DNA from: Escherichia coli
Lineage (GTDB): Bacteria > Pseudomonadota > Gammaproteobacteria > Enterobacterales > Enterobacteriaceae
Direction: 5' to 3' (one strand)
NCBI RefSeq assembly: GCF_016903815.1
Contig: NZ_CP069973.1
DNA: 64,000 bases
A program made the translations under genes and the position numbers. This document shows positions 249 to 37,993 of this stretch, in pieces. The first letter of the stretch is position 1. Each line of letters begins with the position of its first letter. Below the pieces are notes generated by a model that saw only the letters and a list, made by a program, of their open reading frames with translations, was not told the DNA's origin and ran no database searches.

Positions 249-1132
249 TGGTAACGCACCTTGCTTTCAACATAGCGGAACTGCACCACCGTCAGCACGA
301 TGACGAGGAACATCAACACTACCGACTGCGCGGCAGACGAAGCCAGATCCAGTCCGGTAAAGCCTTCGCGGTAGATCTTATAAATCAGCGTCGTGGTGGC
401 CTGAACCGGCCCGCCGGACGTGGCGGCGTCGATCACCGGGAAGGTGTCGAAGAAGGCGTATACCAGGTTCACCACCAGCAGGAAGAAACTCACCGGAGCG
501 ATAAGCGGCAGCGCAATCTTAAAGAAGCGGCGAATCGGCCCTGCACCGTCGATGGCTGCGGCTTCGATCAACGAACGGGGAATGGATTGCAGCGCAGCAT
601 AGAAGAACAGGAAGTTGTAGCTAATTTGCTTCCACACCGAGGCAAACACCACCAGGAACATCGCCTGACCGCTGTTTTGTGCGTGGTTCCAGTCATAGCC
701 GAACTCAGCGAGAAAATGGGTGATCAGCCCGCGACCGGGGTTAAACAGGAAGATCCATAATACGGCGGCAACGGCGGGAGCCACAGCATACGGTAGCAGC
801 ATTAAGGTTTGATAGAAACGGCTGCCGCGCACGATGTACTCCACCAGCGCTGCGAAGAACAGCGATACCAGCAAACCGCTGACGGTGACAAAGGTGCTGA
901 ATTTTATCGTCGTCCAGAAGGAGTCGAGATAGTAGCTGTCATGAAACAACGTGACGAAGTTATCCAGGCCGACAAACTGGCTGGAGAAACCAAACGGATC
1001 GACGCTTTGTAGCGAGTACCACAACGCTTCGCCCGCAGGCCAGATAAAAAAGATAACGGTGATGATGAGCTGCGGCGCGACCAGCAAATAAGGCAGCCAG
1101 CGCGAGCGAAACACCGGACGGGATGATGACAT
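245..1132 (-). CDS. ugpA: sn-glycerol-3-phosphate ABC transporter permease UgpA
   Basis: 295-aa track ORF; polytopic permease sequence; position between ugpB and ugpE. Confidence 0.93.
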
Positions 1133-1152
1133 TACGGTTAATTCCTGAACTG

Positions 1153-1222
1153 TGCCGGATGCGCTTCGCTTATCCGGCCTACACGCGATGCCAGGTCAGA
1201 TAAGCGAAACGCATCCGACATT
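1153..1222. repeat. REP-like palindromic units in ugpB-ugpA intergenic spacer
   Basis: gccggatgcg...cttatccggcctaca motif typical of enterobacterial REP elements. Confidence 0.55.
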
Positions 1223-1229
1223 ACACTGA

Positions 1230-2546
1230 TTAAGACTTCGTCGATTTCTCAAAGCGGCGCAGCAACTGATTTCCACGCTCAACGGCGGTATCCAGCGCCT
1301 GCTGTGGCGTCTTCTTACCGGTCCACACGCTCTCCAGCTCTTCATCCACAATCACGCGGATTTGCGGCATGTTGCCCAGACGCAGCCCTTTGGTGAACGG
1401 CAACGGCGGCTTGTTCAGCATCTGACGCGTCGCGGTATCCGCCCCTGGGTTTTTCTCATAAAAGCCCTGCTCACGCGTCAGGTCATAGGCCGCTTTGGTG
1501 ATTGGCAGATAACCGGTTTTCTGATGCCACTCAGCAGCGTTTTCTGGTTTCGCGAGGAAGTCGAGGAACTTCGCCACACCCGTATAAGTTTCTTTATCTT
1601 TGCCTTGCATCACCCACAGGCTGGCTCCACCGATAATGGCATTTTGCGGTGCATCTTTCGCATCGGCGTCGTAAGGCATCATGCCTACGCCGTAGTTAAA
1701 TTTGGCGTACTCGCGAATGTTGGCAAGAGAACCGGAAGAGGCAGTGGTCATCGCGCAATCACCGTTATAGAACTTCTCAGTGGATTCATCCTTACGCCCG
1801 ACGTAGCTGAAATCGCCCTTCTTGTTCATCTCTTCGAGCATAGTGATGTGTTTCACCTGCTCCGGCTTGTTGAACTCCAGCACCGCGTCTGTGCCGTCAA
1901 AGCCGTTGTTTTTGCTGGCAAACGGCAGACCGTTCCAGGCGCTAAAGTTTTCCAGTTGGATCCAGCCCTGCCAGCCGCTGGCGTAGCCGCACTTCATACC
2001 GGAGGCTTTCAGTTTCGCGGCATAGTCCGCCAGATCCTGCCAGGTTTTCGGCGGCTGTTCCGGGTCTAAACCGGCTTTCTTGAAGGCGTCTTTGTTGTAA
2101 TAGAGAACGGGAGTCGAGCTGTTGAACGGCTGGGAGAGTAAGTGGCCGGTTTTGCTGTCGGAGTAGTAACCTGAAACCGTCGGCACAAACTGCGACTCAT
2201 CGAACTGAATCCCCGCCTCTTTAAACACGTCATATACTGGTTTAATGGCTTTCGACGCCATCATGGTGGCGGTGCCAACTTCATAAACCTGCAAAATAGC
2301 AGGCGCGTTGCCGGTACGAAATGCGGCAATCCCCGCGCTTAAATTCTGTTCGTAGTTGCCTTTATAGGTCGGTACAATTTTGTAATCCGGGTTTTCGGCG
2401 TTAAAACGTTGGGCCAGAGAATCCACCTCTTTACCCAGTTCCCCTTCCATAGAATGCCAGAACGGAATGGTCGTCACTGCCTGTGCATTCCCCATTAACG
2501 CCAGTCCGAGCGCCAGTGCTGAAGCTGTATAATGTAACGGTTTCAT
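1230..2546 (-). CDS. ugpB: periplasmic sn-glycerol-3-phosphate binding protein UgpB
   Basis: 438-aa track ORF with N-terminal signal peptide; recognised UgpB sequence. Confidence 0.95.
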
Positions 2547-2783
2547 CGTTTATCTCTCTTGTTGTACCGAATGCGCGAATTCACGCGTTTTATGCTCGCG
2601 GGGTAACATGACATGCTCGAATTACAGAAAAATAACTTTTTTGTTACATTTGTAAGATAGTAAGGTGTCAGAAAGATGACAAGGCGGTGACGGTACGGGT
2701 GAGGGAAAATGGGAGATGGGGCACGGATAAGCGGGAAAAATAGAAGGTCTGAATCAAACTCTACAGATTGCTCATCGTTTCAT

Positions 2784-2882
<99 letters not shown>

Positions 2883-2943
2883 AATTTTACATTTGTAACC
2901 TGTCTCAAAGGAGTCTTTTGACTCCTTATCAATCAACGTGTTA

Positions 2944-3657
2944 TTACCCGCCTAAATACGCACTTCTCACCGCTTCGTTTGCCAGCAGCGCATCGCCGGT
3001 ATCGGAGAGCACCACATGACCGTTTTCCAGCACGTAGCCGCGATCAGCGAGCTTTAGCGCCTGGTTGGCGTTCTGCTCGACGAGGAAGATGGTCATCCCC
3101 TGCTCGCGCAGTTGTTCGATGGTGTCGAAAATTTGCTGGATGATAATCGGTGCCAGCCCGAGCGATGGCTCATCAAGCAGTAGCAAACGCGGGTTACTCA
3201 TCAAAGCGCGACCAATCGCCAGCATCTGCTGTTCACCGCCAGACATAGTGCCCGCTCGCTGAACACGGCGCTCATGGAGACGCGGAAACAGTTCATAGAC
3301 CCACTTTATGCGCTCCTGGAACTGGTCGCGTTCGGCAAAAAAGCCGCCCATCGCCAGGTTCTCTTCCACCGTCATCCGCGAGAAAACACGACGCCCTTCC
3401 GGGACAATCGCCACCGCTTCGCGCATGATTTTCGCCGTCTGCCAGTCGGTAATGTCTTTATCATCAAACACAATTCGCCCGCCGGTGGCGCGCGGGTCGC
3501 CGCATAATGTGCCGAGCAAGGTGGTTTTCCCCGCGCCGTTCGCGCCAATGAGGGTGACAATCTCGCCCTCATTGATATGCAGGCTCACCTCATGCAGCGC
3601 CTGGATTTTGCCGTAGTGGGCGCTGACTTTGTCAAAGGACAACATGACTTTTTCCAT
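2944..3657 (-). CDS. livF: branched-chain amino acid ABC transporter ATPase LivF
   Basis: Track ORF 2944..3669; start trimmed to MEKVMLSFDKV (237 aa); Walker A GANGAGKTT. Confidence 0.93.
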   Translation of the reverse strand: MEKVMLSFDKVSAHYGKIQALHEVSLHINEGEIVTLIGANGAGKTTLLGTLCGDPRATGGRIVFDDKDITDWQTAKIMREAVAIVPEGRRVFSRMTVEENLAMGGFFAERDQFQERIKWVYELFPRLHERRVQRAGTMSGGEQQMLAIGRALMSNPRLLLLDEPSLGLAPIIIQQIFDTIEQLREQGMTIFLVEQNANQALKLADRGYVLENGHVVLSDTGDALLANEAVRSAYLGG

Positions 3658-3658
3658 C

Positions 3659-4426
3659 TTATGCCTCACCTAAATAGGCACGGATCACGTCCGGGTTATT
3701 ACGGATCTGCTCCGGCGTACCGTTTGCCAGCGGCGTCCCCTGGTTGACCACGTAAATTCGGTCTGAAATCCCCATCACCAGCTTCATATCGTGTTCAATC
3801 AACAAGATAGTGGTGTTGTGATGGTTACGCAGTTCGGCAATCAGCTCATCCAGCTCTTTCGTCTCTTTTGGGTTAAGACCCGCCGCCGGTTCATCGAGCA
3901 TTAAAATCTCCGGCTGCGTCACCATACAGCGGGCAATCTCCAGACGGCGCTGGTCACCATAGGCCAGGTTACTCGCCTGACGGTTGGCGTGTTCCAGCAA
4001 ACCAATGCGCTCAAGCCAGGTGGCGGCGCGGTCGAGTGCTTCACTCTGGGCGCGACGGAAAGAGGGGGTTTTCAACAGGCCGGAGAACAGCCCGGTTTTC
4101 AGTTGCTGATGCTGCGCCACCAGCAGGTTTTCAATCACCGTCATTTCACGGAACAGACGCACATGCTGGAAGGTGCGCACCACGCCCATGCGGGCGATTT
4201 GCTGCCCCGGTAAACCTTCCAGGTGCTGATCGCGCAGTAAAATGGTACCGCCGGTGGGTTTGTAGAATCCGGTCAGGCAGTTGAAGACCGTGGTTTTTCC
4301 GGCACCGTTAGGGCCGATTAACGAGACGATCTCCTGCGGGTACAATTCGAGATTGACGTTGTTCACCGCCAGCAGGCCGCCGAAGCGCATCATCAGGCCG
4401 TTAACGGATAATAATGGCTGACTCAT
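3659..4426 (-). CDS. livG: branched-chain amino acid ABC transporter ATPase LivG
   Basis: 255-aa track ORF; Walker [10 protein letters not shown]; liv operon synteny. Confidence 0.95.
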
Positions 4427-5700
4427 GCCTGCTCTCCTTTCGCTGCGCCGTTTTTCAGCTTCAGTTGCGGGCGCGTCATGGGCAGCAAGCCCTGCGGACG
4501 CCAGATCATCATCAGCACCATCAAACCACCGAGCATTAACATGCTGTATTCGTTGAAATCACGCATCAACTCGCGCGATACCACCAGCAGAACAGCCGCC
4601 AGAATCACTGCAAATTGCGAGCCCATACCGCCGAGCACCACTATCGCCAGTACAAAGGCTGATTCAGCAAAGGTGAAGGATTCCGGGCTGACAAAGCCCT
4701 GACGCGCAGCAAACAGCGTTCCGGCAAAACCGGCAAACGCAGCGCTGATGGTAAAGGCAGTCAGCTTGATACGACGCGGGCTTAAGCCCAGCGAACGACA
4801 AGCGATTTCATCTTCACGCAACGCTTCCCACGCACGCCCCAGCGGCATCCGCAGCAGGCGGTTAATGACAAACAGGCTTAACACCACTAGCAGCAACGCC
4901 ACCAGGTACAGGAAGATAACGCGATCGGAGGGATCGTATTTCAGGCCAAAGAAATTACTGAACGTGTCCCAGCCGCCTTCACGGGCGGTACGGCTGAACT
5001 CGAGTCCGAAGAGCGTCGGTTTCGGGATCTGACTGATACCGTTCGGTCCGCCGGTAATTTCGGTGTTATTGAGCAGCAATATGCGCACAATTTCGCCGAA
5101 ACCGAGGGTAACGATCGCCAGATAGTCACCGCGCAGACGCAACACCGGGAAGCCGAGCAGGAAGCCCGCCGCCGCCGCCATCAACCCGGCAATCGGCAGA
5201 CAGGTCCAGAAGCCCAGACCGTAATAGTGATTGAGCAGCGCAAAAGTGTAAGCGCCGATGGCGTAAAAGCCGCCGTATCCCAGCACCAGCAGACCAGAAA
5301 GACCTACCACCACGTTCAGCCCGAGACCGAGAATAATGTAGATCATGGTCAGGGTGGCGATATCCACCGTCCCACGTGAAACCATAAACGGCCACGCCAC
5401 CGCAAGCACCAGCAGCGCCACGAGAAACAGCTTTTGCTTCACCGTGGAGCCATCAATCGCTGGCAGAATAAACTTCGGCCCGGAAACGCTTTTTAGCCCT
5501 TTCTGGAAAGCCGGTCGCAAAAGCTGGAAGAAAAAGACCACCGCCGTGCCGATAAACACCCATTCCCAACGGACGTCTGAAGCGCTATCGACCACCAGTT
5601 TGGTGCCATCCAGCTCGAGTTGCACGCCCATAAAGACGCCCGCCAGCACAAAGAACATCACAGCAGAGAGCAGCGCCATTGCAATATGCATCGGTTTCAT
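4423..5700 (-). CDS. livM: branched-chain amino acid ABC transporter permease LivM
   Basis: 425-aa track ORF, membrane protein, 4-nt overlap with livG and livH. Confidence 0.95.
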
Positions 5701-29427: not shown

Positions 29428-32400
29428 ATGAGCGGAAAACCGGCGGCGCGTCAGGGCGACATGACGCAGTATGGCGGTAGCATTGTCCAGGGTTCAGCCG
29501 GGGTGCGCATCGGTGCCCCCACCGGCGTGGCCTGTTCGGTGTGCCCCGGCGGGGTGACGTCCGGCCATCCGGTCAATCCGCTGCTCGGCGCGAAGGTCCT
29601 TCCCGGCGAAACCGACCTTGCCCTGCCCGGCCCGCTGCCGTTCATCCTCTCCCGCACCTACAGCAGTTACCGGACAAAAACGCCCGCGCCGGTGGGGAAC
29701 CTCGGCCCCGGCTGGAAAATGCCTGCGGATATCCGCTTACAGCTGCGCGATAACACACTGATACTCAGTGATAACGGCGGCAGAAGCCTGTATTTTGAGC
29801 ACCTGTTTCCCGGTGAGGACGGTTACAGCCGCAGCGAGTCACTCTGGCTGGTGCGCGGCGGCGTGGCGAAACTGGATGAAGGTCACCGGCTGGCCGCACT
29901 CTGGCAGGCGCTGCCGGAAGAGCTTCGCCTGAGTCCGCATCGTTATCTGGCGACGAACAGTCCGCAGGGGCCGTGGTGGGTACTCGGCTGGTGTGAGCGG
30001 GTGCCGGAGGCGGATGAGGTGCTGCCTGCGCCGCTGCCGCCGTACCGGGTACTGACCGGGCTGGTGGACCGCTTCGGGCGCACACAGACGTTCCACCGTG
30101 AGGCTGGCGGCGAAATCACCGGCGTGACGGATGGTGCCGGGCGTCACTTCCGGCTGGTACTGACCACGCAGGCGCAGCGGGCAGAAGAAGCCCGGCAGCA
30201 GGCCTCTTCCGGCGGGACGGAACCGTCCGCTTTTCCTGATACCCTGCCGGGTTACACCGAATATGGCCGGGACAACGGCATCCGTCTGTCTGCCGTGTGG
30301 CTGACGCACGACCCGGAATACCCGGAGAATTTACCTGCCGCGCCGCTGGTGCGCTATGGCTGGACGCCACGCGGCGAACTGGCGGCGGTGTATGACCGCA
30401 GCAATACACAGGTGCGCAGCTTTACTTACGATGATAAATACCGGGGCCGGATGGTGGCGCACCGTCACACGGGCCGGCCGGAAATCCGTTACCGTTACGA
30501 CAGCGACGGGCGGGTGACAGAACAGCTAAACCCGGCAGGCTTAAGCTACACGTATCAGTATGAGAAAGACCGCATCACCATCACCGACAGTATGGACCGC
30601 CGTGAAGTGCTGCACACGCAGGGCGAAGGCGGGCTGAAGCGGGTGGTGAAAAAGGAACACGCGGACGGCAGCGTCACGCAGAGTCAGTTTGATGCGGTGG
30701 GCAGGCTTAAGGCACAGACGGATGCCGCAGGCCGGACGACTGAGTACAGCCCGGATGTGGTGACGGGACTCATCACGCGCATCACCACACCGGATGGCAG
30801 GGCATCGGCATTTTACTATAACCACCACAACCAGTTAACGTCAGCCACCGGGCCTGACGGGCTGGAAATACGCCGGGAATATGATGAATCCGGCCGTCTG
30901 ATTCAGGAAACCGCACACAACGGCGATATCACCCGCTACCGTTATGATAATCCACACAGTGACTTACCCTGCGCAACGGAAGATGCCACCGGCAGCCGGA
31001 AAACCATGACATGGAGCCGTTACGGTCAGTTGCTGACCGTCACTGACTGTTCCGGTTATGTAACCCGTTATGACCATGACCGTTTTGGTCAGGTGACGGC
31101 GGTGCACCGCGAGGAAGGGCTGAGTCAGTACCGCGCATACGACAGCCGTGGACAGTTAATTGCGGTGAAAGACACGCAGGGCCATGAAACGCGGTATGAA
31201 TACAACGCCGCCGGTGACCTGACCGCCGTCATTGCCCCGGACGGCAGCAGAAACGGGACACAGTACGATGCGTGGGGAAAGGCCATCCGTACCACACAGG
31301 GCGGTCTGACGCGCAGTATGGAATACGATGCTGCCGGACGGGTCATCCGCCTGACCAGTGAAAACGGCAGCCACACCACCTTCCGTTACGATGTACTCGA
31401 CCGGCTGATACAGGAAACCGGCTTTGACGGCCGCACACAGCGTTATCACCACGACCTGACCGGCAAACTTATCCGCAGCGAGGATGAGGGGCTGGTCACC
31501 CACTGGCACTATGACGAAGCAGACCGCATCACACAGCGAACGGTGAATGGTGAAACCGCAGAACAGTGGCGGTACGACGAACGCGGCTGGCTGACACAAA
31601 TCAGCCATCTCAGCGAAGGCCACCGGGTGACGGTGCATTACGGGTATGATGAGAAAGGCCGCCTGACCGGTGAGCGCCAGACGGTGCATCACCCGCAGAC
31701 GGAAGCACTGCTCTGGCAGCATGAAACCAGACACGCTTACAACGCGCAGGGACTGGCGAACCGCTGTATACCGGACAGCCTGCCCGCCGTGGAATGGCTG
31801 ACTTACGGCAGCGGCTGGCTGGCAGGCATGAAACTCGGCGACACACCGCTGGTGGATTTCACCCGCGACCGCCTGCACCGGGAAACGCTGCGCAGCTTCG
31901 GCCGTTATGAACTCACCACCGCTTATACCTCTGCCGGGCAGTTACAGAGCCAGCACCTGAACAGCCTGCAGTATGACCGCGATTACACCTGGAACGACAA
32001 CGGCGAACTCATCCGCATCAGCAGCCCGCGACAGACCCGGAGTTACAGCTACAGCGACTCCGGCAGGCTGACCGGCGTCCACACCACCACCTCAAATCTG
32101 GATATCCGCATCCCGTATGCCACGGACCCGGCAGGCAACCGCCTGCCCGACCCGGAGCTGCACCCGGACATCACCCTCAGCATGTGGCCGGATAACCGTA
32201 TCGCCCGTGACGCGCACTATCTTTACCGGTATGACCGTCACGGCAGACTGACGGAGAAAACCGACCTCATCCCGGAAGGGGTTATCCGCACGGATGATGA
32301 GCGGACTCACCGGTACCATTACGACAGTCAGCACCGGCTGGTGCACTACACGCGGACACAATATGCAGAGCCGCTGGTCGAAAGTCGCTATCTTTACGAC

Positions 32401-33615
32401 CCGCTGGGCCGCAGGGTGGCAAAACGGGTGTGGCGGCGTGAACGGGACCTGACGGGCTGGATGTCGCTGTCACGGAAACCGGAAGTGACCTGGTACGGCT
32501 GGGACGGCGACCGGCTGACCACGATACAGAACGACAGAACCCGCATCCAGACGGTTTATCAGCCGGGGAGCTTCACGCCACTCATCAGGGTCGAAACCGC
32601 CACCGGTGAGCTGGCGAAAACGCAGCGCCGCAGCCTGGCGGATGCGCTTCAGCAGTCCGGCGGCGAAGACGGTGGCAGTGTGGTGTTCCCGCCGGTGCTG
32701 GTGCAGATGCTCGACCGGCTGGAAAGTGAAACCCTGGCTGACCGGGTGAGTGAGGAAAGCCGCCGCTGGCTGGCATCGTGCGGCCTGACGGTGGAGCAGA
32801 TGCAAAACCAGATGGACCCGGTGTACACGCCGGCGCGAAAAATCCACCTGTACCACTGCGACCATCGCGGCCTGCCGCTGGCGCTTGTCAGCACGGAAGG
32901 GGCAACAGAATGGTACGCAGAATACGATGAATGGGGTAACCAGCTGAGTGAGGATAACCCGCACCAGCTGCAGCAGCTCATCCGCCTGCCGGGTCAGCAG
33001 TATGATGAGGAGTCAGGCCTGTATTACAACCGCCACCGCTATTATGACCCGCTGCAGGGGCGGTATATCACTCAGGATCCGATTGGACTGAAGGGGGGAT
33101 GGAATTTTTATCAGTATCCGTTAAATCCGGTTCAGTATATAGATTCAATGGGACTGGCATCTAAATATGGACACTTAAATAATGGCGGATATGGAGCGAG
33201 ACCCAACAAACCGCCTACGCCCGATCCAAGTAAGTTGCCAGACATAGCGAAACAATTAAGACTGCCATATCCTATTGACCAGGCCAGTAGTGCGCCTAAT
33301 GTTTTCAAAACATTCTTCAGAGCATTAAGTCCTTACGATTACACACTGTATTGCAGGAAGTGGGTAAAACCCAATCTGACTTGTACGCCGCAGGATGATC
33401 CCCAGTATCCAGGGATGGAGACAAAGACAGCAAGTGATTACCTGCCACAGACAACTTGGCCAACAACTCAATTACCACCAGGATATACTTGTGCAGAACC
33501 CTATTTATTCCCAGACATTAATAAACCCGATGGGCCAGCAACAGCAGGGATAGATGATTTGGGTGAAATTTTAGCTAAAATGAAACAGAGAACATCGAGA
33601 GGAATAAGAAAATGA
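29428..33615 (+). CDS. rhsB: Rhs family polymorphic toxin (PAAR-like N-terminus, YD-repeat core, variable C-terminal toxin tip)
   Basis: 1395-aa track ORF; YD repeats; conserved core end ...[16 protein letters not shown] (DPIGL at 33076-33090); locus position after nikR. Confidence 0.93.
32701..33143 (+). repeat. Rhs core 3' segment, copy 1 of about 443-bp direct repeat
   Basis: Near-identical to 37551..37993 (same reading frame, a few substitutions). Confidence 0.85.
33091..33615 (+). other. variable C-terminal toxin domain of RhsB (after DPxGL motif), function unknown
   Basis: Sequence after DPIGL is AT-richer and Pro/Tyr/Cys-rich with no recognisable catalytic motif. Confidence 0.7.
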
Positions 33616-34181
33616 AAAGAGCTTTGTTCTTTTTGCTGATGATATTCGTTAGTTTTGGTGTTATAGCTAATTGCGAAACACAAGCTAAAGATCAAGATTG
33701 CTTTACCATTTTCACTAAGGGTACTATTTTTTCCGCGTTTCCTGTCTTAAATAATAAAACCATGTGGAGATGGTATCAGAATGAGGACATAGGTGAGTAT
33801 TATTGGCAAACAGAACTTGGTATATGTAAAAATAACAAATTCACACCAAGCGGGGCGAGACTCTTAATTCGCGTCGGATCACTACGCCTTAATGAAAATC
33901 ATGCAACCAAAGGAACGTTGCAGGAGTTGCTAAATACAGCAGAAAAAACGGCGTTTCTCGGCGATCGGTTTAGAAGTTATATAAGAGCGGGTATCTATCA
34001 AAAAAAGAGCAGTGATCCAGCTCAGTTGTTGGCAGTCCTTGATAATTCAATCATGGTTAAATATTTTAAAGATGAGAAGCCAACTTATGCTCGAATGACA
34101 GCACATCTCCCGAACAAAGATGAGTCTTACGAATGTTTAACAAAAGTACAGCATGAACTGCTTCGTAGTGAAGAAAAATAA
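33612..34181 (+). CDS. putative cognate immunity protein of RhsB toxin tip; has N-terminal signal peptide
   Basis: ATG overlaps rhsB stop (ATGA at 33612-33615); 189 aa; [20 protein letters not shown] signal-like N-terminus. Confidence 0.65.
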
Positions 34182-34202
34182 AATCTCTTCCTGAGAAAAT
34201 AA

Positions 34203-34340
34203 ATTAACTATTCGAAAAAATATGTTCTTAATGGGTATCCAGGAACACCAGAAGGTCGATTTGGAAAAATGGATTCCGATGGTAAGAATATCATATATTC
34301 TGAATGTAATGTTTTACCCACAACTTTTGAGATTCGATAG
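34203..34340 (+). pseudogene. possible relic of a toxin C-terminal tail (open frame without start)
   Basis: 45-codon open frame ...YSKKYVLNGYPGTPEGRFGKMDSDGKNIIYSECNVLPTTFEIR ending 10 nt before the next small ORF start. Confidence 0.3.
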
Positions 34341-34349
34341 GTGTAGAGC

Positions 34350-34697
34350 ATGAGAAACTCACTAATATTACTTATTATGATATTGTTTACAATATCACAC
34401 TCAGTATTTGGAAAAGAAAATTCAGTGGAAATTTTAGTAAATAGTCGTGAAATGGCTTTGGAATTATCATATGTTTATATTAAATATATATACGGGAAAG
34501 AAAAAGCAGAATTTCAGAAACCATATAGTATTACAGATGACAATAATTGTTGGAAAATCGAGGGAAAACAACCGAAGACGTTAGGAGGAAATTTTACAAT
34601 ACTAATAGCGAAAAAAGATGGGCAAGCGTTGGATGTAATACACAAAATAATCCACTGTTCAAACGATTCAAATATTTTACCAAGGTGTGTTTCATAA
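34350..34697 (+). CDS. small secreted NTF2-like putative orphan immunity protein
   Basis: 115-aa track ORF with signal peptide; paralogous to ORF 36296..36562. Confidence 0.6.
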   Translation: MRNSLILLIMILFTISHSVFGKENSVEILVNSREMALELSYVYIKYIYGKEKAEFQKPYSITDDNNCWKIEGKQPKTLGGNFTILIAKKDGQALDVIHKIIHCSNDSNILPRCVS

Positions 34698-35279
34698 CTA
34701 TTTTGTGTACAATATGACTCTACATATCGACGAAAAAACCACTTGATTTGACAGGAACACATTCAAAAAAATTTCTTTTTCATTTCAGGAGCGATTTTCA
34801 TCTGTTACTTGAAGTATCTGTGAGATTAAGTGACTCCCCCTAACGTCGTACTAAATAGTAATTACTGGCCATACCGGGAGCAGTATTCGGCGCTTCCCAC
34901 ATGCAGCAGAATAACCGCATCAGCGAAGATGTATTGTATTTTTACTATCACAATGTGTACGGACGGTTTATGGAAAAGAATGAACATTAGATACGCGATG
35001 CGGCGGCAGATTACACGGTTATCACTACGATAGCCAATACTGGCTGGTGCATTACCGCCGTGAACAATAGGACGCCGTACTGCTGGAAATTTCTTACCTT
35101 TATGACTCCCCGCACCGCCGTATCGGGAAACGGGAAGCAGTCAAGATGAGGCTGATATAATGTGTGGAATGCCTGAGTATTTTTAGAATAGAGGGTAATA
35201 TGTTTGATAGAATATATCTTGGTGATCGACCAATAAAAAAATTGAATTTGATTTATGGAGCAAACAAATTAGAATTCAG

Positions 35280-35564
35280 GTGAATTTAATCTCAAGGATA
35301 GCCTATGGTACAACAGAATGGAATTTTTATAATAATGAAGACTTAGAAAATGGTTATTTAGTATTTACCGATGTTACTTTCTTTAATATAATACCTAATG
35401 GCTCCATTCCAGATGATTATATAGTTTCAATAATAACAGATAAAGTCAATGTTGAATGTTTTGAATCAACTATAGTTGCTGTTGGTCAAATTCGAAACAC
35501 AAATGTTGGTGACATTGATAATATTGGTGAATGTCAAATTCTCATCAGGTATAAAGACCGCTAG
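35280..35564 (+). CDS. hypothetical small protein, possibly 3' part of a split gene
   Basis: 94-aa track ORF starting at GTG that overlaps the TGA of a 27-codon ORF (35200..35283) in a GTGA junction. Confidence 0.35.
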   Translation: MNLISRIAYGTTEWNFYNNEDLENGYLVFTDVTFFNIIPNGSIPDDYIVSIITDKVNVECFESTIVAVGQIRNTNVGDIDNIGECQILIRYKDR

Positions 35565-35848
35565 ATTGAGAATAAACTCAAAGAAAAAATAATTGAATAA
35601 CCATGTCAGTTATAGACATTTTAGATGGAACGAACCAGAGAAGGTCATGCCTCCGAGCTGGGTTATGTGGACACGGAGCTTTAGCGTAGTGAACTCAACG
35701 AAGCAAGCCGGAAACCTGCCAGCCCTTATCAGCACGTAAGGGACAACAGCGTAGTACGCAGAATAATCCTACCCACGTAGTATGGACACAGGCCTAAGCG
35801 AGGTTCTGGTTTTCAAATTTTTCAGGAGTTAGATGATTGGAGGAACAG

Positions 35849-36214
35849 ATGATAAGAATCGCATTTTTAATAACCAATAAATTTCTTGAGATAGATAGTA
35901 CCACTCTTGCTGGATATGATTTTAGCGGGATGAATCTACATCGTGCCACCCTCAATGGTTATTGTCTTGATGGGGCGAAATTTGAAAAAACTCATTTAAG
36001 AAATGTAATGATTCAACATACATCAACTAGAAATGCTGTCTTTCACAATGCGGCTCTGATGAATGCTATTCTGAATAACTCAGATTTCACTGGAAGTGAT
36101 TGTAGTAATTCAAGGTCAATAGGTGAAAATTTTAAAGCAATAGATAATCATGGGAAAGATATAATAAATGGAAAAGGATTGTCTAATGTTTGCAAAATAC
36201 ATGACAACGTATAA
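35849..36214 (+). CDS. pentapeptide-repeat protein (possible immunity/target-protection protein)
   Basis: Track ORF 35837..36214; ATG at 35849 preceded by ggagg; tandem 5-residue periodicity ATLNG YCLDG AKFEK THLRN ... AALMN AILNN SDFTG. Confidence 0.7.
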   Translation: MIRIAFLITNKFLEIDSTTLAGYDFSGMNLHRATLNGYCLDGAKFEKTHLRNVMIQHTSTRNAVFHNAALMNAILNNSDFTGSDCSNSRSIGENFKAIDNHGKDIINGKGLSNVCKIHDNV

Positions 36215-36295
36215 GAAAATATTATTCAGAACCTATGTGATTGTATCTTTGTTTTTACATACAACACATGGGCGCAGTGTAATAATATTATTATA

Positions 36296-36562
36296 ATGCG
36301 CAAGTATGAATGTGAGGGGAAATACACCGTTAGAAATTTGGTAAAAAATAAAGCTATAGCATTGGAATTAGCTGAGATGTATGTTAAAAATCGTTATGGG
36401 CATGATGCCGCAGAAGAAGAAAAACCATACAAAATCATGGAATTACCAACAAGTTGGATTGTTGAAGGCACCATTGAATCAGACCAAATTGCTGGTAGGG
36501 TTTTTATTATAGAAATAGGCAAAAATGACGGGAGAATTCTAAATTTTGGCCACGGAAAATAA
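36296..36562 (+). CDS. NTF2-like putative orphan immunity protein, paralog of 34350..34697 lacking signal peptide
   Basis: 88-aa track ORF; aligns by eye with the 34350 ORF (ALELAEMYVKNRYG.../KPY.I...W..EG...DG..L). Confidence 0.55.
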   Translation: MRKYECEGKYTVRNLVKNKAIALELAEMYVKNRYGHDAAEEEKPYKIMELPTSWIVEGTIESDQIAGRVFIIEIGKNDGRILNFGHGK

Positions 36563-36666
36563 GTATGTAAGGATAAACAAACATCGTGTGTGCTGATGGC
36601 AGAGTAGGTGGAGGACTCCAGACAGTCAAACGATAGAAAAAGATAGTCTTTATGGAGGTTCCTGCA

Positions 36667-37509
36667 ATGTCAAATACATACCAGAAAAGAAAGGCAAGTA
36701 AAGAGTATGGTTTATATAATCAATGTAAGAAACTAAATGATGATGAATTATTTCGCTTACTTGATGATCACAATTCCTTGAAAAGGATTTCATCTGCCAG
36801 AGTATTACAGTTAAGAGGTGGTCAAGACGCTGTTAGATTGGCAATTGAGTTCTGCTCTGATAAAAATTATATCCGTAGAGATATCGGAGCATTTATACTC
36901 GGGCAAATAAAAATTTGCAAAAAATGCAAAGATAATGTGTTTAATATTTTGAACAATATGGCATTGAATGATAAGAGCGCTTGCGTTCGAGCTACGGCAA
37001 TCGAGTCAACGGCTCAGCGATGCAAGAAAAACCCAATTTATTCACCTAAAATAGTAGAACAATCTCAAATTACTGCTTTTGATAAATCGACTAATGTCAG
37101 ACGTGCTACAGCATTTGCTATTTCTGTTATCAATGATAAAGCAACAATTCCACTATTGATTAATCTGTTAAAAGATCCAAATGGAGATGTCAGAAACTGG
37201 GCCGCATTTGCAATAAATATCAATAAATATGATAATAGTGATATTAGGGATTGTTTTGTGGAGATGCTTCAGGATAAAAATGAGGAAGTCCGTATTGAAG
37301 CAATAATCGGACTTTCCTACAGAAAAGATAAAAGGGTTTTATCTGTTTTATGCGATGAGTTAAAAAAAAATACTGTTTATGATGATATCATTGAAGCTGC
37401 GGGTGAATTAGGTGATAAAACGCTACTTCCTGTTTTAGATACTATGTTGTACAAGTTTGATGACAATGAAATTATAACTTCCGCTATTGATAAGCTGAAG
37501 CGTTCATAG
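36667..37509 (+). CDS. HEAT-repeat (PBS-lyase type) protein, YibA-like putative Rhs immunity protein
   Basis: Track ORF 36652..37509; ATG at 36667 has ggagg RBS and gives 280 aa; repeated D.N..VR..AA.AL motifs. Confidence 0.8.
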   Translation: MSNTYQKRKASKEYGLYNQCKKLNDDELFRLLDDHNSLKRISSARVLQLRGGQDAVRLAIEFCSDKNYIRRDIGAFILGQIKICKKCKDNVFNILNNMALNDKSACVRATAIESTAQRCKKNPIYSPKIVEQSQITAFDKSTNVRRATAFAISVINDKATIPLLINLLKDPNGDVRNWAAFAININKYDNSDIRDCFVEMLQDKNEEVRIEAIIGLSYRKDKRVLSVLCDELKKNTVYDDIIEAAGELGDKTLLPVLDTMLYKFDDNEIITSAIDKLKRS

Positions 37510-37550
37510 CGTGAGTTGCCTATGCACAGTGGGGGATTCCCGCCGGCACG

Positions 37551-37993
37551 GTGCAGATGCTCGACCGGCTGGAAAGTGAAATCCTGGCTGACCGGGTGAG
37601 TGAGGAAAGCCGCCGCTGGCTGGCATCGTGCGGCCTGACGGTGAAGCAGATGCAAAACCAGATGGACCCGGTGTACACGCCGGCGCGAAAAATCCACCTG
37701 TACCACTGCGACCATCGCGGCCTGCCGCTGGTGCTTATCAGCACGGAAGGGGCAACAGAATGGTGCGCAGAATACGATGAATGGGGCAACCTGCTGAATG
37801 AAGAGAACCCGCAACAGCTGCAGCAACTCATCCGCCTGCCGGGTCAGCAGTATGATGAGGAGTCCGGCCTGTATTACAACCGCCACCGCTATTATGATCC
37901 GCTGCAGGGGAGGTATATCACTCAGGATTCGATTGGGCTGAAGGGGGGATGGAATTTTTATGAGTATCCGTTGAATCCGGTTCAGTATATAGA
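37551..37993 (+). repeat. Rhs core 3' segment, copy 2 of direct repeat
   Basis: Matches 32701..33143; DPIGL motif altered to DSIGL in this copy. Confidence 0.85.

What the first reader, a model, noticed from the sequence alone, without database searches (positions are those of the whole stretch)
34829..35800. Two GC-rich non-coding islands inside the AT-rich immunity array
Segments of about 34829-35160 and 35600-35800 are visibly GC-richer than their surroundings and carry stop codons in all six frames. The first is bracketed by two similar motifs (gtgactccccctaacgtcgta and atgactccccgcaccgccgta) about 270 bp apart. I cannot assign them to any RNA or element class; they may be relics of recombined toxin genes or a small structured RNA.
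Basis: seen in the sequence. Interest (0 to 1): 0.42.

Follow-up and report, generated by a model that had tools for sequence, protein, structure and literature searches.

The report
Decayed Rhs gene scraps, IS3 end
The two GC-richer patches are dead leftovers of Rhs toxin genes, one capped by a stub of the insertion sequence IS3, lying between orphan immunity genes downstream of an E. coli rhs gene; this is a well-known, ordinary feature of such loci.

Summary
Island 1 (34829-35160) is 47% GC and island 2 (35600-35800) is 50% GC, against 29-31% GC around them, and both have stops in all six frames. The window is the E. coli rhsB locus (nikR to yhhJ).

- **Island 1** is a frameshifted, stop-riddled relic of an Rhs core, matching residues about 919-1000 (NCBIfam RHS_core E=1.3e-13). 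At about 35129 it joins the last 18 codons of an Rhs toxin tip. That toxin's DUF6258 immunity gene follows and is itself frameshifted.
- **The two "bracketing" motifs**: the second encodes the YD-repeat signature (YDSPHRRIGK). The first (SDSP*RRTK) looks like another by inference.
- **Island 2** has three parts: an unassigned spacer of about 105 bp, a 60-bp piece of the Rhs core 3' end, and a 64-bp solo right end of IS3 that cuts that piece off.

There is no Rfam match, and neither island folds better than shuffled sequence. The same block occurs in about 845 of 5,426 complete E. coli genomes, in BL21 and O157:H7 at the rhsC locus. This is the known "displaced tip / orphan module" architecture of rhs loci. 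Interest is low.

The parts
29428..33615 (+). Full-length rhs gene (context). The GC-rich core (62%) runs to about 33000, followed by an AT-richer toxin tip.
   Evidence: ORF of 1395 aa. Annotated as 'RHS element core protein' in the 100% identical strain 7/2 record, between nikR and yhhJ. GC.
34829..35128 (+). Island 1: pseudogene relic of an Rhs core. It lies in two reading frames broken by stops. 34829-34984 is in one frame and holds the first motif SDSP*RRTK and core residues 919-946. 35008-35133 is in another frame and holds core residues 959-1000, including the second motif YDSPHRRIGK.
   Evidence: tblastn with the window's own Rhs: 57% identity over 42 aa plus 39% over 28 aa, E=9e-12. 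Local alignment score 159 against 40+-6 for shuffles. NCBIfam NF041261 RHS_core E=1.3e-13, profile positions 937-1018 of 1261. Frames.
35129..35186 (+). Tail of a displaced Rhs toxin tip: the last 18 codons plus the stop, fused directly to the core relic. About 400 codons are missing, including the DPxGL boundary and nearly all of the toxin.
   Evidence: 18/18 residues identical to the C-terminus of an intact 1425-aa Rhs in strain AST215 (L004, CDS 781-5058). DNA 35129-35765 is 93.8% identical to L004 5001-5642.
35200..35600 (+). DUF6258 family gene, positioned as the immunity gene of that lost toxin, lying between the two islands. In this window it is frameshifted near codon 13 and has a premature stop at 35562-35564.
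   Evidence: 92.6% identity to the intact 133-aa DUF6258 protein that follows the Rhs gene in L004. The match is split over two frames with an internal stop. PGAP annotates only a 94-aa piece.
35601..35705 (+). Left part of island 2: spacer of 47% GC and unassigned origin, present after the DUF6258 gene in three of the four other loci examined (L002, L004, L006; in O157:H7 L005 the block ends at about 35625).
   Evidence: Collinear at 87-94% identity in L002, L004 and L006. No RHS_core HMM match. Only a weak local similarity to core residues 844-883, score 46 against 31.9+-3.8 for shuffles.
35706..35765 (+). Middle part of island 2: the start of the next orphan Rhs core 3' fragment (...LPALIST*GTTA*YAE, core residues about 1146-1162), with two stops, cut off on its right side.
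   Evidence: 35722-35765 is 84% identical to the main core (L001 6182-6225, which is window 32881-32924), E=2e-7. 35725-35765 is 85% identical to 37734-37774 in the downstream core fragment. In L004, L002 and L006 the same fragment continues into ...EYDEWGN....
35764..35827 (+). Right part of island 2: solo right-end stub of insertion sequence IS3 (terminal inverted repeat plus about 25 inner bases), with no transposase gene.
   Evidence: 61 of 65 bases identical to the outermost 65 bases of an intact IS3, starting exactly at its terminal TGATCC. This segment alone matches up to 13 places per genome and 669 places on plasmids, all under IS3 transposase annotations.
37551..38216 (+). Downstream orphan module with a well-preserved core 3' fragment plus a tip (context). 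It shows what island 2 looked like before truncation.
   Evidence: RHS_core E=1.2e-89, profile positions 1111-1261; Rhs_assc_core E=1.7e-23.

Best explanation
Both islands are debris from repeated replacement of the toxin tip of an rhs gene. Each incoming tip arrives with a piece of GC-rich core, an AT-rich toxin tip and an AT-rich immunity gene, and it pushes the earlier module downstream. The displaced modules are not translated and decay.

Island 1 is what remains of one such core piece (residues about 919-1000, possibly from about 899), now in two frames with stops. An internal deletion joined it to the last 18 codons of its toxin tip. The DUF6258 immunity gene that follows has itself picked up a frameshift and a stop.

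Island 2 is the 5' start of the next module's core piece. An IS3 element inserted into it, and a later deletion removed the rest of IS3 together with the remaining core and the toxin. That left a 64-bp IS3 end butted against a pentapeptide-repeat ORF.

The islands look GC-rich simply because Rhs core (62% GC) and IS3 DNA are richer in GC than the toxin/immunity cassettes (about 30%).

Shown: the homologies, the junctions and the distribution. Inferred: the order of events, and that the islands have no present function.
For: 1. Locus identity. The window is 100% identical to E. coli strain 7/2, in the order nikR - rhs - immunity genes - IS1/ISAs1 - yhhJ.
2. Island 1 is Rhs core. Evidence comes from tblastn (E=9e-12), an alignment score about 19 SD above shuffles, and the RHS_core HMM (E=1.3e-13). 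All seven library relatives that were checked are RHS_core proteins matching the same core region.
3. The junction to the toxin tail and the DUF6258 gene. 35129-35765 is collinear at 90-94% with 'end of intact Rhs - DUF6258 - core fragment' in two other strains.
4. The island 2 core fragment and the IS3 end.
5. The whole block 33000-35765 is collinear at 95% with the rhsC locus of BL21, and as far as 35625 with that of O157:H7. Island 1 is in 845 of 5,426 genomes, single-copy and never on plasmids.
6. No RNA signal. No promoter-like site inside island 1 and no terminator-like site in the array.
7. Published description of exactly this architecture. A GC-poor region downstream of rhs holds fragmentary core and tip sequences, often frameshifted (Jackson et al. 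2009, PMC2935791). Orphan rhs-CT/rhsI modules are described by Poole et al. 2011 (PMC3150448).
Against: - Island 1 is far from any living Rhs core. It is about 48-57% identical in protein and 61.5% in DNA to the core upstream, and at most 55% to any intact-looking representative among 1.84 billion proteins. Jackson et al. report that displaced core fragments are near-identical to the resident core. So island 1 is either much older than typical displaced fragments or came from another lineage.
- The 105 bp at 35601-35705 has no assigned origin.
- Island 1 differs less between strains (1.4-2.0%) than its flanks do (2.3-5.4%). This rests on 4-6 substitutions only, so it is weak, but it is not what pure neutral decay predicts.
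- No expression data could be examined.
Confidence: 0.9

Rival explanations
1. One or both islands encode a small structured RNA, such as an sRNA, a riboswitch-like leader or a 3'UTR-derived RNA of the immunity genes.
For: The islands are GC-richer than their surroundings, lie between genes and have no open frame. Island 1 is slightly better conserved than its flanks.
Against: No Rfam family matches at E<=1 on either strand of 33000-38000. Predicted folding is no more stable than shuffled sequence, with z = +0.30 and +0.47. There are no terminator-like sites in the array and no promoter-like site in island 1. The sequence is fully accounted for by protein-coding homology. In O157:H7 a 5-bp deletion sits in the middle of island 1.
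Confidence: 0.03
2. Island 1 is a small mobile element or its footprint, with the two similar 21-mers as its terminal direct repeats.
For: Two motifs agreeing at 16 of 21 bases lie 272 bp apart near the island's edges.
Against: The island is single-copy: 859 places in 845 genomes, never on plasmids, and an rhs locus in every context examined. The similarity is marginal, since 5.7% of shuffles reach it. The second motif lies inside the core-homologous stretch and translates to the YD-repeat signature; the first reads SDSP*RRTK. The true right boundary of the relic is the deletion junction at about 35129, not the motif.
Confidence: 0.02
3. Island 1 did not decay in place from the resident (clade I-type) core. 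It is a relic of a different, poorly sampled Rhs lineage that arrived with the DUF6258 module by lateral transfer.
For: It is only 61.5% identical in DNA to the resident core. Blastn at word size 11 finds no intermediate E. coli relative. The best library relatives are 41-55% identical. Its GC content is 47% against 62% for the resident core.
Against: It is about equally distant from all RHS_core proteins found. That is what long neutral, AT-biased decay of any core would give. In other strains the same toxin tail and DUF6258 gene are attached to an ordinary full-length RHS core.
Confidence: 0.25
4. The islands are kept as homology patches that let the main rhs gene recombine with downstream orphan modules and switch toxins.
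For: Recombination between a main rhs and an orphan through shared core sequence has been demonstrated in Salmonella (Koskiniemi et al. 2014, PMC3967940, listed).
Against: No toxin is left behind either island to be activated. Island 1 is about 61% identical to the core. Island 2 keeps only 41-44 bp at 84-85% identity, and the longest uninterrupted identical run in its aligned copy is 12 bases (read off the alignment). From established knowledge, not tested here, that is too little for efficient RecA-dependent recombination. The well-preserved core fragment at 37551-38007 (96% identical to intact cores in other strains) is the realistic recombination substrate.
Confidence: 0.03

Closest known systems
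Displaced ('dissociated') Rhs core-fragment/tip/immunity modules, also called orphan rhs-CT/rhsI modules (Jackson et al. 2009, PMC2935791; Poole et al. 2011, PMC3150448; Koskiniemi et al. 2014, PMC3967940)
   Same: They lie downstream of a full-length rhs in a GC-poor array. GC-richer pieces homologous to the Rhs core precede immunity genes. They carry frameshifts and stops, lack translation starts, and the same module is attached to a full-length Rhs in other strains.
   Different: Both pieces have lost the PxxxxDPxGL boundary and the toxin, so they are sub-orphan debris rather than activatable modules. Island 1 is far more diverged from the resident core (about 50% aa identity) than the near-identical fragments described in the literature.
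IS3 (IS3 family insertion sequence of E. coli)
   Same: Window 35764-35827 is 94% identical to the terminal 64-65 bases of the IS3 right end, beginning exactly at the element's tip.
   Different: Only the end survives. There is no transposase gene, no left end and no recognisable target duplication. It cannot move.
Partial core repeats and H-rpt/ISAs1 elements of classical E. coli Rhs elements (Hill laboratory descriptions; from my own knowledge, also cited within PMC2935791)
   Same: The composite structure is the same: GC-rich core, AT-rich extension, downstream ORFs, partial core copies and insertion sequences. ISAs1 and IS1 copies lie further downstream here as well.
   Different: This is not an H-rpt. 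The IS piece in island 2 is IS3, not ISAs1.

Membership tests
Orphan / displaced rhs module | Lies downstream of a full-length rhs gene, on the same strand, in a GC-poor array | tested here: met
   The rhs gene is at 29428-33615 (+) and the islands lie 1.2-2.2 kb downstream. Array GC is 35%.
Orphan / displaced rhs module | Contains sequence homologous to the Rhs core | tested here: met
   Island 1: RHS_core HMM E=1.3e-13 and tblastn E=9e-12. Island 2, 35722-35765: 84% nucleotide identity to the core 3' region, and 35725-35765 is 85% identical to the downstream core fragment. The stretch 35601-35705 has no such homology.
Orphan / displaced rhs module | The core fragment ends in the PxxxxDPxGL motif and continues into a complete toxin tip | tested here: not met
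   Island 1 jumps from core residue about 1000 to the last 18 codons of the tip. Island 2 is cut by IS3 at core residue about 1162, before the motif.
Orphan / displaced rhs module | Followed by a small cognate immunity gene | tested here: inconclusive
   A DUF6258 gene follows island 1 in the same position as behind the intact Rhs of strain AST215. Here it is frameshifted, and its immunity function was not tested. What follows island 2 is a pentapeptide-repeat ORF of unknown relation.
Orphan / displaced rhs module | The core fragment is of the same clade as, and near-identical to, the resident core (Jackson et al. 2009) | tested here: not met
   This holds for island 1: 61.5% nucleotide and about 48-57% aa identity to the resident core. 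Island 2's fragment is 84% identical over 44 bp, which is too short to place in a clade.
IS3 insertion sequence | Terminal inverted repeat beginning TGATCC... | tested here: met
   61 of 65 bases match the right end of an intact IS3. The terminal TG reads TA here.
IS3 insertion sequence | orfA/orfB transposase and a second end | tested here: not met
   Homology stops at 35827, and no transposase is annotated there.
Known structured RNA families (Rfam 15) | Covariance-model match | tested here: not met
   No match at E<=1 on either strand of 33000-38000. Fold z-scores are +0.30 and +0.47.

The most novel reading that the evidence does not exclude
Island 1 may be the only surviving trace of an otherwise unsampled Rhs core lineage that once delivered the DUF6258-linked toxin into E. 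coli. If so, tip capture can cross Rhs clade boundaries, against the same-clade rule proposed by Jackson et al. 2009. Alternatively, its slightly low between-strain divergence may reflect a present role, for example as part of a transcript covering the orphan immunity genes.
Probability: 0.12. Interest if true: 0.3.

Novelty: already known. Interest (0 to 1): 0.08.

Why it matters
It matters little beyond annotation. RefSeq leaves island 1 and most of island 2 unannotated ('none'). Labelling them as an Rhs core pseudogene fragment, a toxin-tip tail and an IS3 end relic would stop them being mistaken for RNA genes or novel elements. They also help reconstruct the history of toxin-tip turnover: the same block sits at rhsB in this strain but at rhsC in BL21 and O157:H7. 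The islands illustrate how far displaced modules can erode while neighbouring immunity genes persist.

Tried and rejected
- **Rfam scan** of 33000-38000 with permissive filters found nothing.
- **RNA folding** of each island against shuffles gave no excess stability.
- **Promoter and terminator scan** found no more than chance, and nothing inside island 1.
- **blastn at word size 11** of island 1 against all complete E. coli genomes, looking for an intermediate or intact ancestor, returned only the same relic at >=95% identity.
- **Word-indexed protein search** with the repaired translation found only a 55-aa ORF called on a variant of the same relic.
- **Full HMMER search** of 1.84 billion representatives found Rhs proteins, but none closer than 55% apart from ORFs called on the relic itself.
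- **Assigning 35601-35705** failed. Translations from three strains gave no RHS_core hit, and there was only a weak local similarity to core residues 844-883.
- **A third upstream motif** at 34715 (TGACTCTACATATCGACGAA, reading YDSTYRRK), and any extension of the relic into 34690-34828, could not be separated from chance.
- **Pfam scan** of the intact toxin tip whose tail survives found no family.
- **Mobile-element reading** of the two motifs was rejected (see rival explanations).

Full report
**1. Where we are**

The stretch 34700-35900 is 100% identical to many complete E. coli chromosomes. In strain 7/2 the annotated order is nikCDE, nikR, a 1395-aa 'RHS element core protein', and then a run of small genes. 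These are a hypothetical protein, an NTF2-fold immunity protein, a DUF6258 protein, a pentapeptide-repeat pseudogene, a frameshifted NTF2-fold immunity protein, yibA and an Rhs core fragment. IS1, an ISAs1 fragment and yhhJ follow. This is the rhsB locus. In the window the full-length rhs is 29428-33615. Its core is 62% GC, and the array downstream (33616-37500) is 35% GC.

**2.

- **GC content.** Island 1 (34829-35160) is 47.3% GC and island 2 (35600-35800) is 50.2% GC. The segments between and beside them are 28.7-34.0% GC.
- **Stops.** Each island has at least two stops in each of the six frames.
- **Motifs.** The two motifs are at 34830 and 35102, 272 bp apart, and agree at 16 of 21 bases. 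A pair that good turns up in 5.7% of shuffles of 34800-35200, so the similarity alone is only marginal.

**3. Island 1**

A frameshift-tolerant comparison with the window's own Rhs protein gives two collinear matches in different frames (joint E=9e-12):

| Window | Rhs core residues | Identity |
|---|---|---|
| 34901-34984 | 919-946 | 39% |
| 35008-35133 | 959-1000 | 57%, one internal stop |

- After joining the frames, the local alignment scores 159 against 40+-6 for shuffled peptides.
- NCBI's curated RHS_core model (NF041261) matches at E=1.3e-13, over profile positions 937-1018 of 1261.
- The second motif translates to Y-D-S-P-H-R-R-I-G-K. It aligns with [12 protein letters not shown] of the core, the hallmark YDxxGR(L/R) of a YD repeat.
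- The first motif is in frame with the 34901 segment and reads S-D-S-P-stop-R-R-T-K. It sits about where the core has [10 protein letters not shown] (residues 897-906). I read it as another YD repeat, but this is inference, because the alignments and the HMM match do not reach it.
- The motifs therefore reflect Rhs repeat structure. They are not element boundaries.

**4. The right edge of island 1**

From 35129 onward the sequence is collinear with two other E. coli loci, at 93.8% with L004 (strain AST215, rhsC locus) and 90.4% with L002 (strain TB06051, rhsB locus). It matches the last 52 bases of a full-length Rhs gene, then a DUF6258 gene, then a spacer, then an Rhs core fragment.

The 18 residues TGSSQDEADIMCGMPEYF, followed by a stop, are identical to the C-terminus of the intact 1425-aa Rhs of L004. 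A core relic ending near residue 1000 is thus fused to the last 18 codons of a toxin tip. About 400 codons are missing, including the PxxxxDPxGL boundary and essentially the whole toxin. That toxin tip has no Pfam family.

The DUF6258 gene (35200-35600) occupies the immunity position. In this window it is split over two frames near codon 13 and has a premature stop, compared with the intact 133-aa protein of L004.

**5. Island 2 has three parts**

- **35601-35705 (47% GC).** This spacer follows the DUF6258 gene in the three related loci that extend this far (L002, L004, L006), but I could not assign it. Translations from three strains do not hit RHS_core. The only signal is a weak local similarity to core residues 844-883, scoring 46 against 31.9+-3.8.
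- **35706-35765.** This is the beginning of the next module's core 3' fragment. It reads ...LPALIST*GTTA*YAE against [17 protein letters not shown] in the core. It is 84% identical in DNA to the main core and 85% identical to the better-preserved downstream fragment at 37734-37774. In L004, L002 and BL21 the same fragment runs on into EYDEWGN..., and in L004 and L002 as far as the DPxGL motif.
- **35764-35827.** Here the fragment stops at ...GCAGAATA and is followed by 64 bases that match, at 61 of 65, the outermost bases of the right end of an intact IS3. The match starts exactly at the IS3 terminal TGATCC. This piece alone explains the up to 13 matches per genome and the 669 plasmid matches of the original query, all under IS3 transposase annotations.

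Homology to IS3 ends at 35827, and no transposase follows. An IS3 insertion therefore happened first. A later deletion removed the rest of IS3, the remainder of the core fragment and whatever toxin lay behind it. The order of these events is inferred.

**6. Not an RNA**

No Rfam family matches either strand of 33000-38000 at E<=1. The islands fold no better than dinucleotide shuffles, with z = +0.30 and +0.47. There are no terminator-like sites in the array, and promoter-like sites are at chance level, with none inside island 1.

**7. Distribution**

- Island 1 occurs once per genome in 845 of 5,426 complete E. coli genomes, never on plasmids, at >=95% identity.
- The upstream NTF2 module co-occurs with it, in 847 genomes.
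- The haplotype with the IS3 stub and the pentapeptide ORF is rarer, at about 270 genomes.
- In BL21 and O157:H7 the same block lies at the rhsC locus (ybfA...ybfD) rather than rhsB. It is 95% identical over 2.6-2.8 kb from window position 33000, to 35765 in BL21 and to 35625 in O157:H7. The block has therefore moved between rhs loci, presumably by recombination through the shared cores. That mechanism is inferred.

**8. How old is island 1?**

- It is only 61.5% identical in DNA to the corresponding part of the resident core. Shuffled sequence gives 54+-3% under the same global alignment.
- Blastn at word size 11 finds no intermediate relative in E. coli.
- A full HMMER pass over 1.84 billion representative proteins finds 40 relatives. 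Apart from short ORFs called on the relic itself, they are 41-63% identical over their matched stretches, at most 55% for matches spanning most of the query.
- All seven relatives that I checked are RHS_core proteins matching the same core region.

Island 1 is thus about equally far from everything. That fits long AT-biased decay, but it does not exclude origin from an unsampled lineage. It does differ from the near-identity between displaced and resident cores reported by Jackson et al..

Island 1 also differs less between strains (1.4-2.0%) than its flanks do (2.3-5.4%). That rests on 4-6 substitutions, so I give it little weight.

**9. Comparison with what is known**

Jackson et al. [quoted passage not shown] They explain these as tips displaced by incoming ones. 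Poole et al. 2011 (PMC3150448) define orphan rhs-CT/rhsI modules, some of which carry in-frame stops in the retained core. Koskiniemi et al. 2014 (PMC3967940) concerns selection of orphan Rhs toxin expression in evolved Salmonella (title and abstract); that activation occurs through recombination between the main rhs and the orphan is from my own knowledge of that paper.

The two islands are eroded examples of that architecture. They fail the stricter definition of an orphan module, because neither has a DPxGL motif or a toxin, so neither could be reactivated.

**10. Verdict**

The islands are pseudogene relics of Rhs core plus a toxin tail and an IS3 end, and they look GC-rich only by contrast with the AT-rich cassettes around them. 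Interest is low. The residual unknowns are the provenance of 35601-35705 and the lineage of island 1.

Noticed in passing
window 35200-35600: The DUF6258 gene between the islands is itself damaged here. Relative to the intact 133-aa version in strain AST215, it has a frameshift in an A-run near codon 13 and a premature TAG at 35562-35564. PGAP calls only a 94-aa piece starting at a GTG.
   Followed up: partly
window 34222-34349: Just upstream of the NTF2-fold immunity gene (34350-34697), one frame reads ...GYPGTPEGRFGKMDSDGKNIIYSECNVLPTTFEIR*. It looks like the tail of yet another lost toxin, with no core fragment in front of it. The segment is found in 847 E. coli genomes, and every record listed (25 sampled across the ranking) shows this orphaned state rather than attachment to an Rhs gene.
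   Followed up: partly
window 36128-36600: This stretch is 88% identical to the 3' end of K-12-type rhsB plus yhhH. The frameshifted NTF2-fold gene at 36296-36562 is therefore a YhhH-like immunity gene preceded by the tail of an RhsB-type toxin. The 'pentapeptide repeat' ORF (35849-36214) runs into that tail.
   Followed up: partly
window 33000-35765 against L005 and L006: The whole block (main toxin tip, YbfC-like gene, NTF2 module, island 1, DUF6258) lies at the rhsC locus (ybfA...ybfD) in BL21 and O157:H7, but at the rhsB locus (nikR...yhhJ) in this window. That implies exchange between rhs loci.
   Followed up: partly
window 34829-35128: Island 1 shows 1.4-2.0% divergence from the O157:H7 and BL21 copies, against 2.3-5.4% for the flanks and 8-9% for the DUF6258 gene. 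The counts are small. It may simply reflect mosaic recombination tracts.
   Followed up: no
window 34713-34736: A third, weaker copy of the motif (TGACTCTACATATCGACGAA, 14 of 20 bases, reading YDSTYRRK) lies 116 bp upstream of island 1 in the AT-rich spacer. In the island's frame, LTGTHS at about 34745-34762 resembles LTGVHT of core residues 881-886. The relic may extend further left, but the scores are at chance level.
   Followed up: partly
window 35601-35705: A spacer of about 105 bp and 47% GC follows the DUF6258 gene in the three related loci that extend this far (L002, L004, L006) and has no assignable homology. It shows only a weak similarity to Rhs core residues 844-883 (z about 3.7).
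   Followed up: partly
window 36652-37509: A full-length yibA-like HEAT-repeat gene (PRK09687, E=5e-140) sits inside this rhsB-locus array. From my own knowledge, yibA belongs to the rhsA locus in K-12, which would be another sign of shuffling between rhs loci.
   Followed up: no
L007 1848-2015 (GCA_002230035.1 contig NLOP01000016.1): In one public assembly, small deletions in island 1 create a 55-aa ORF (P0001, MQQNNRISEDVLYFYYPMCTDGLWKRMNIRYAMRRQLHGYHYDSQYWLVHYRREQ) that gene callers report as a protein. It is an artefact of the relic.
   Followed up: partly
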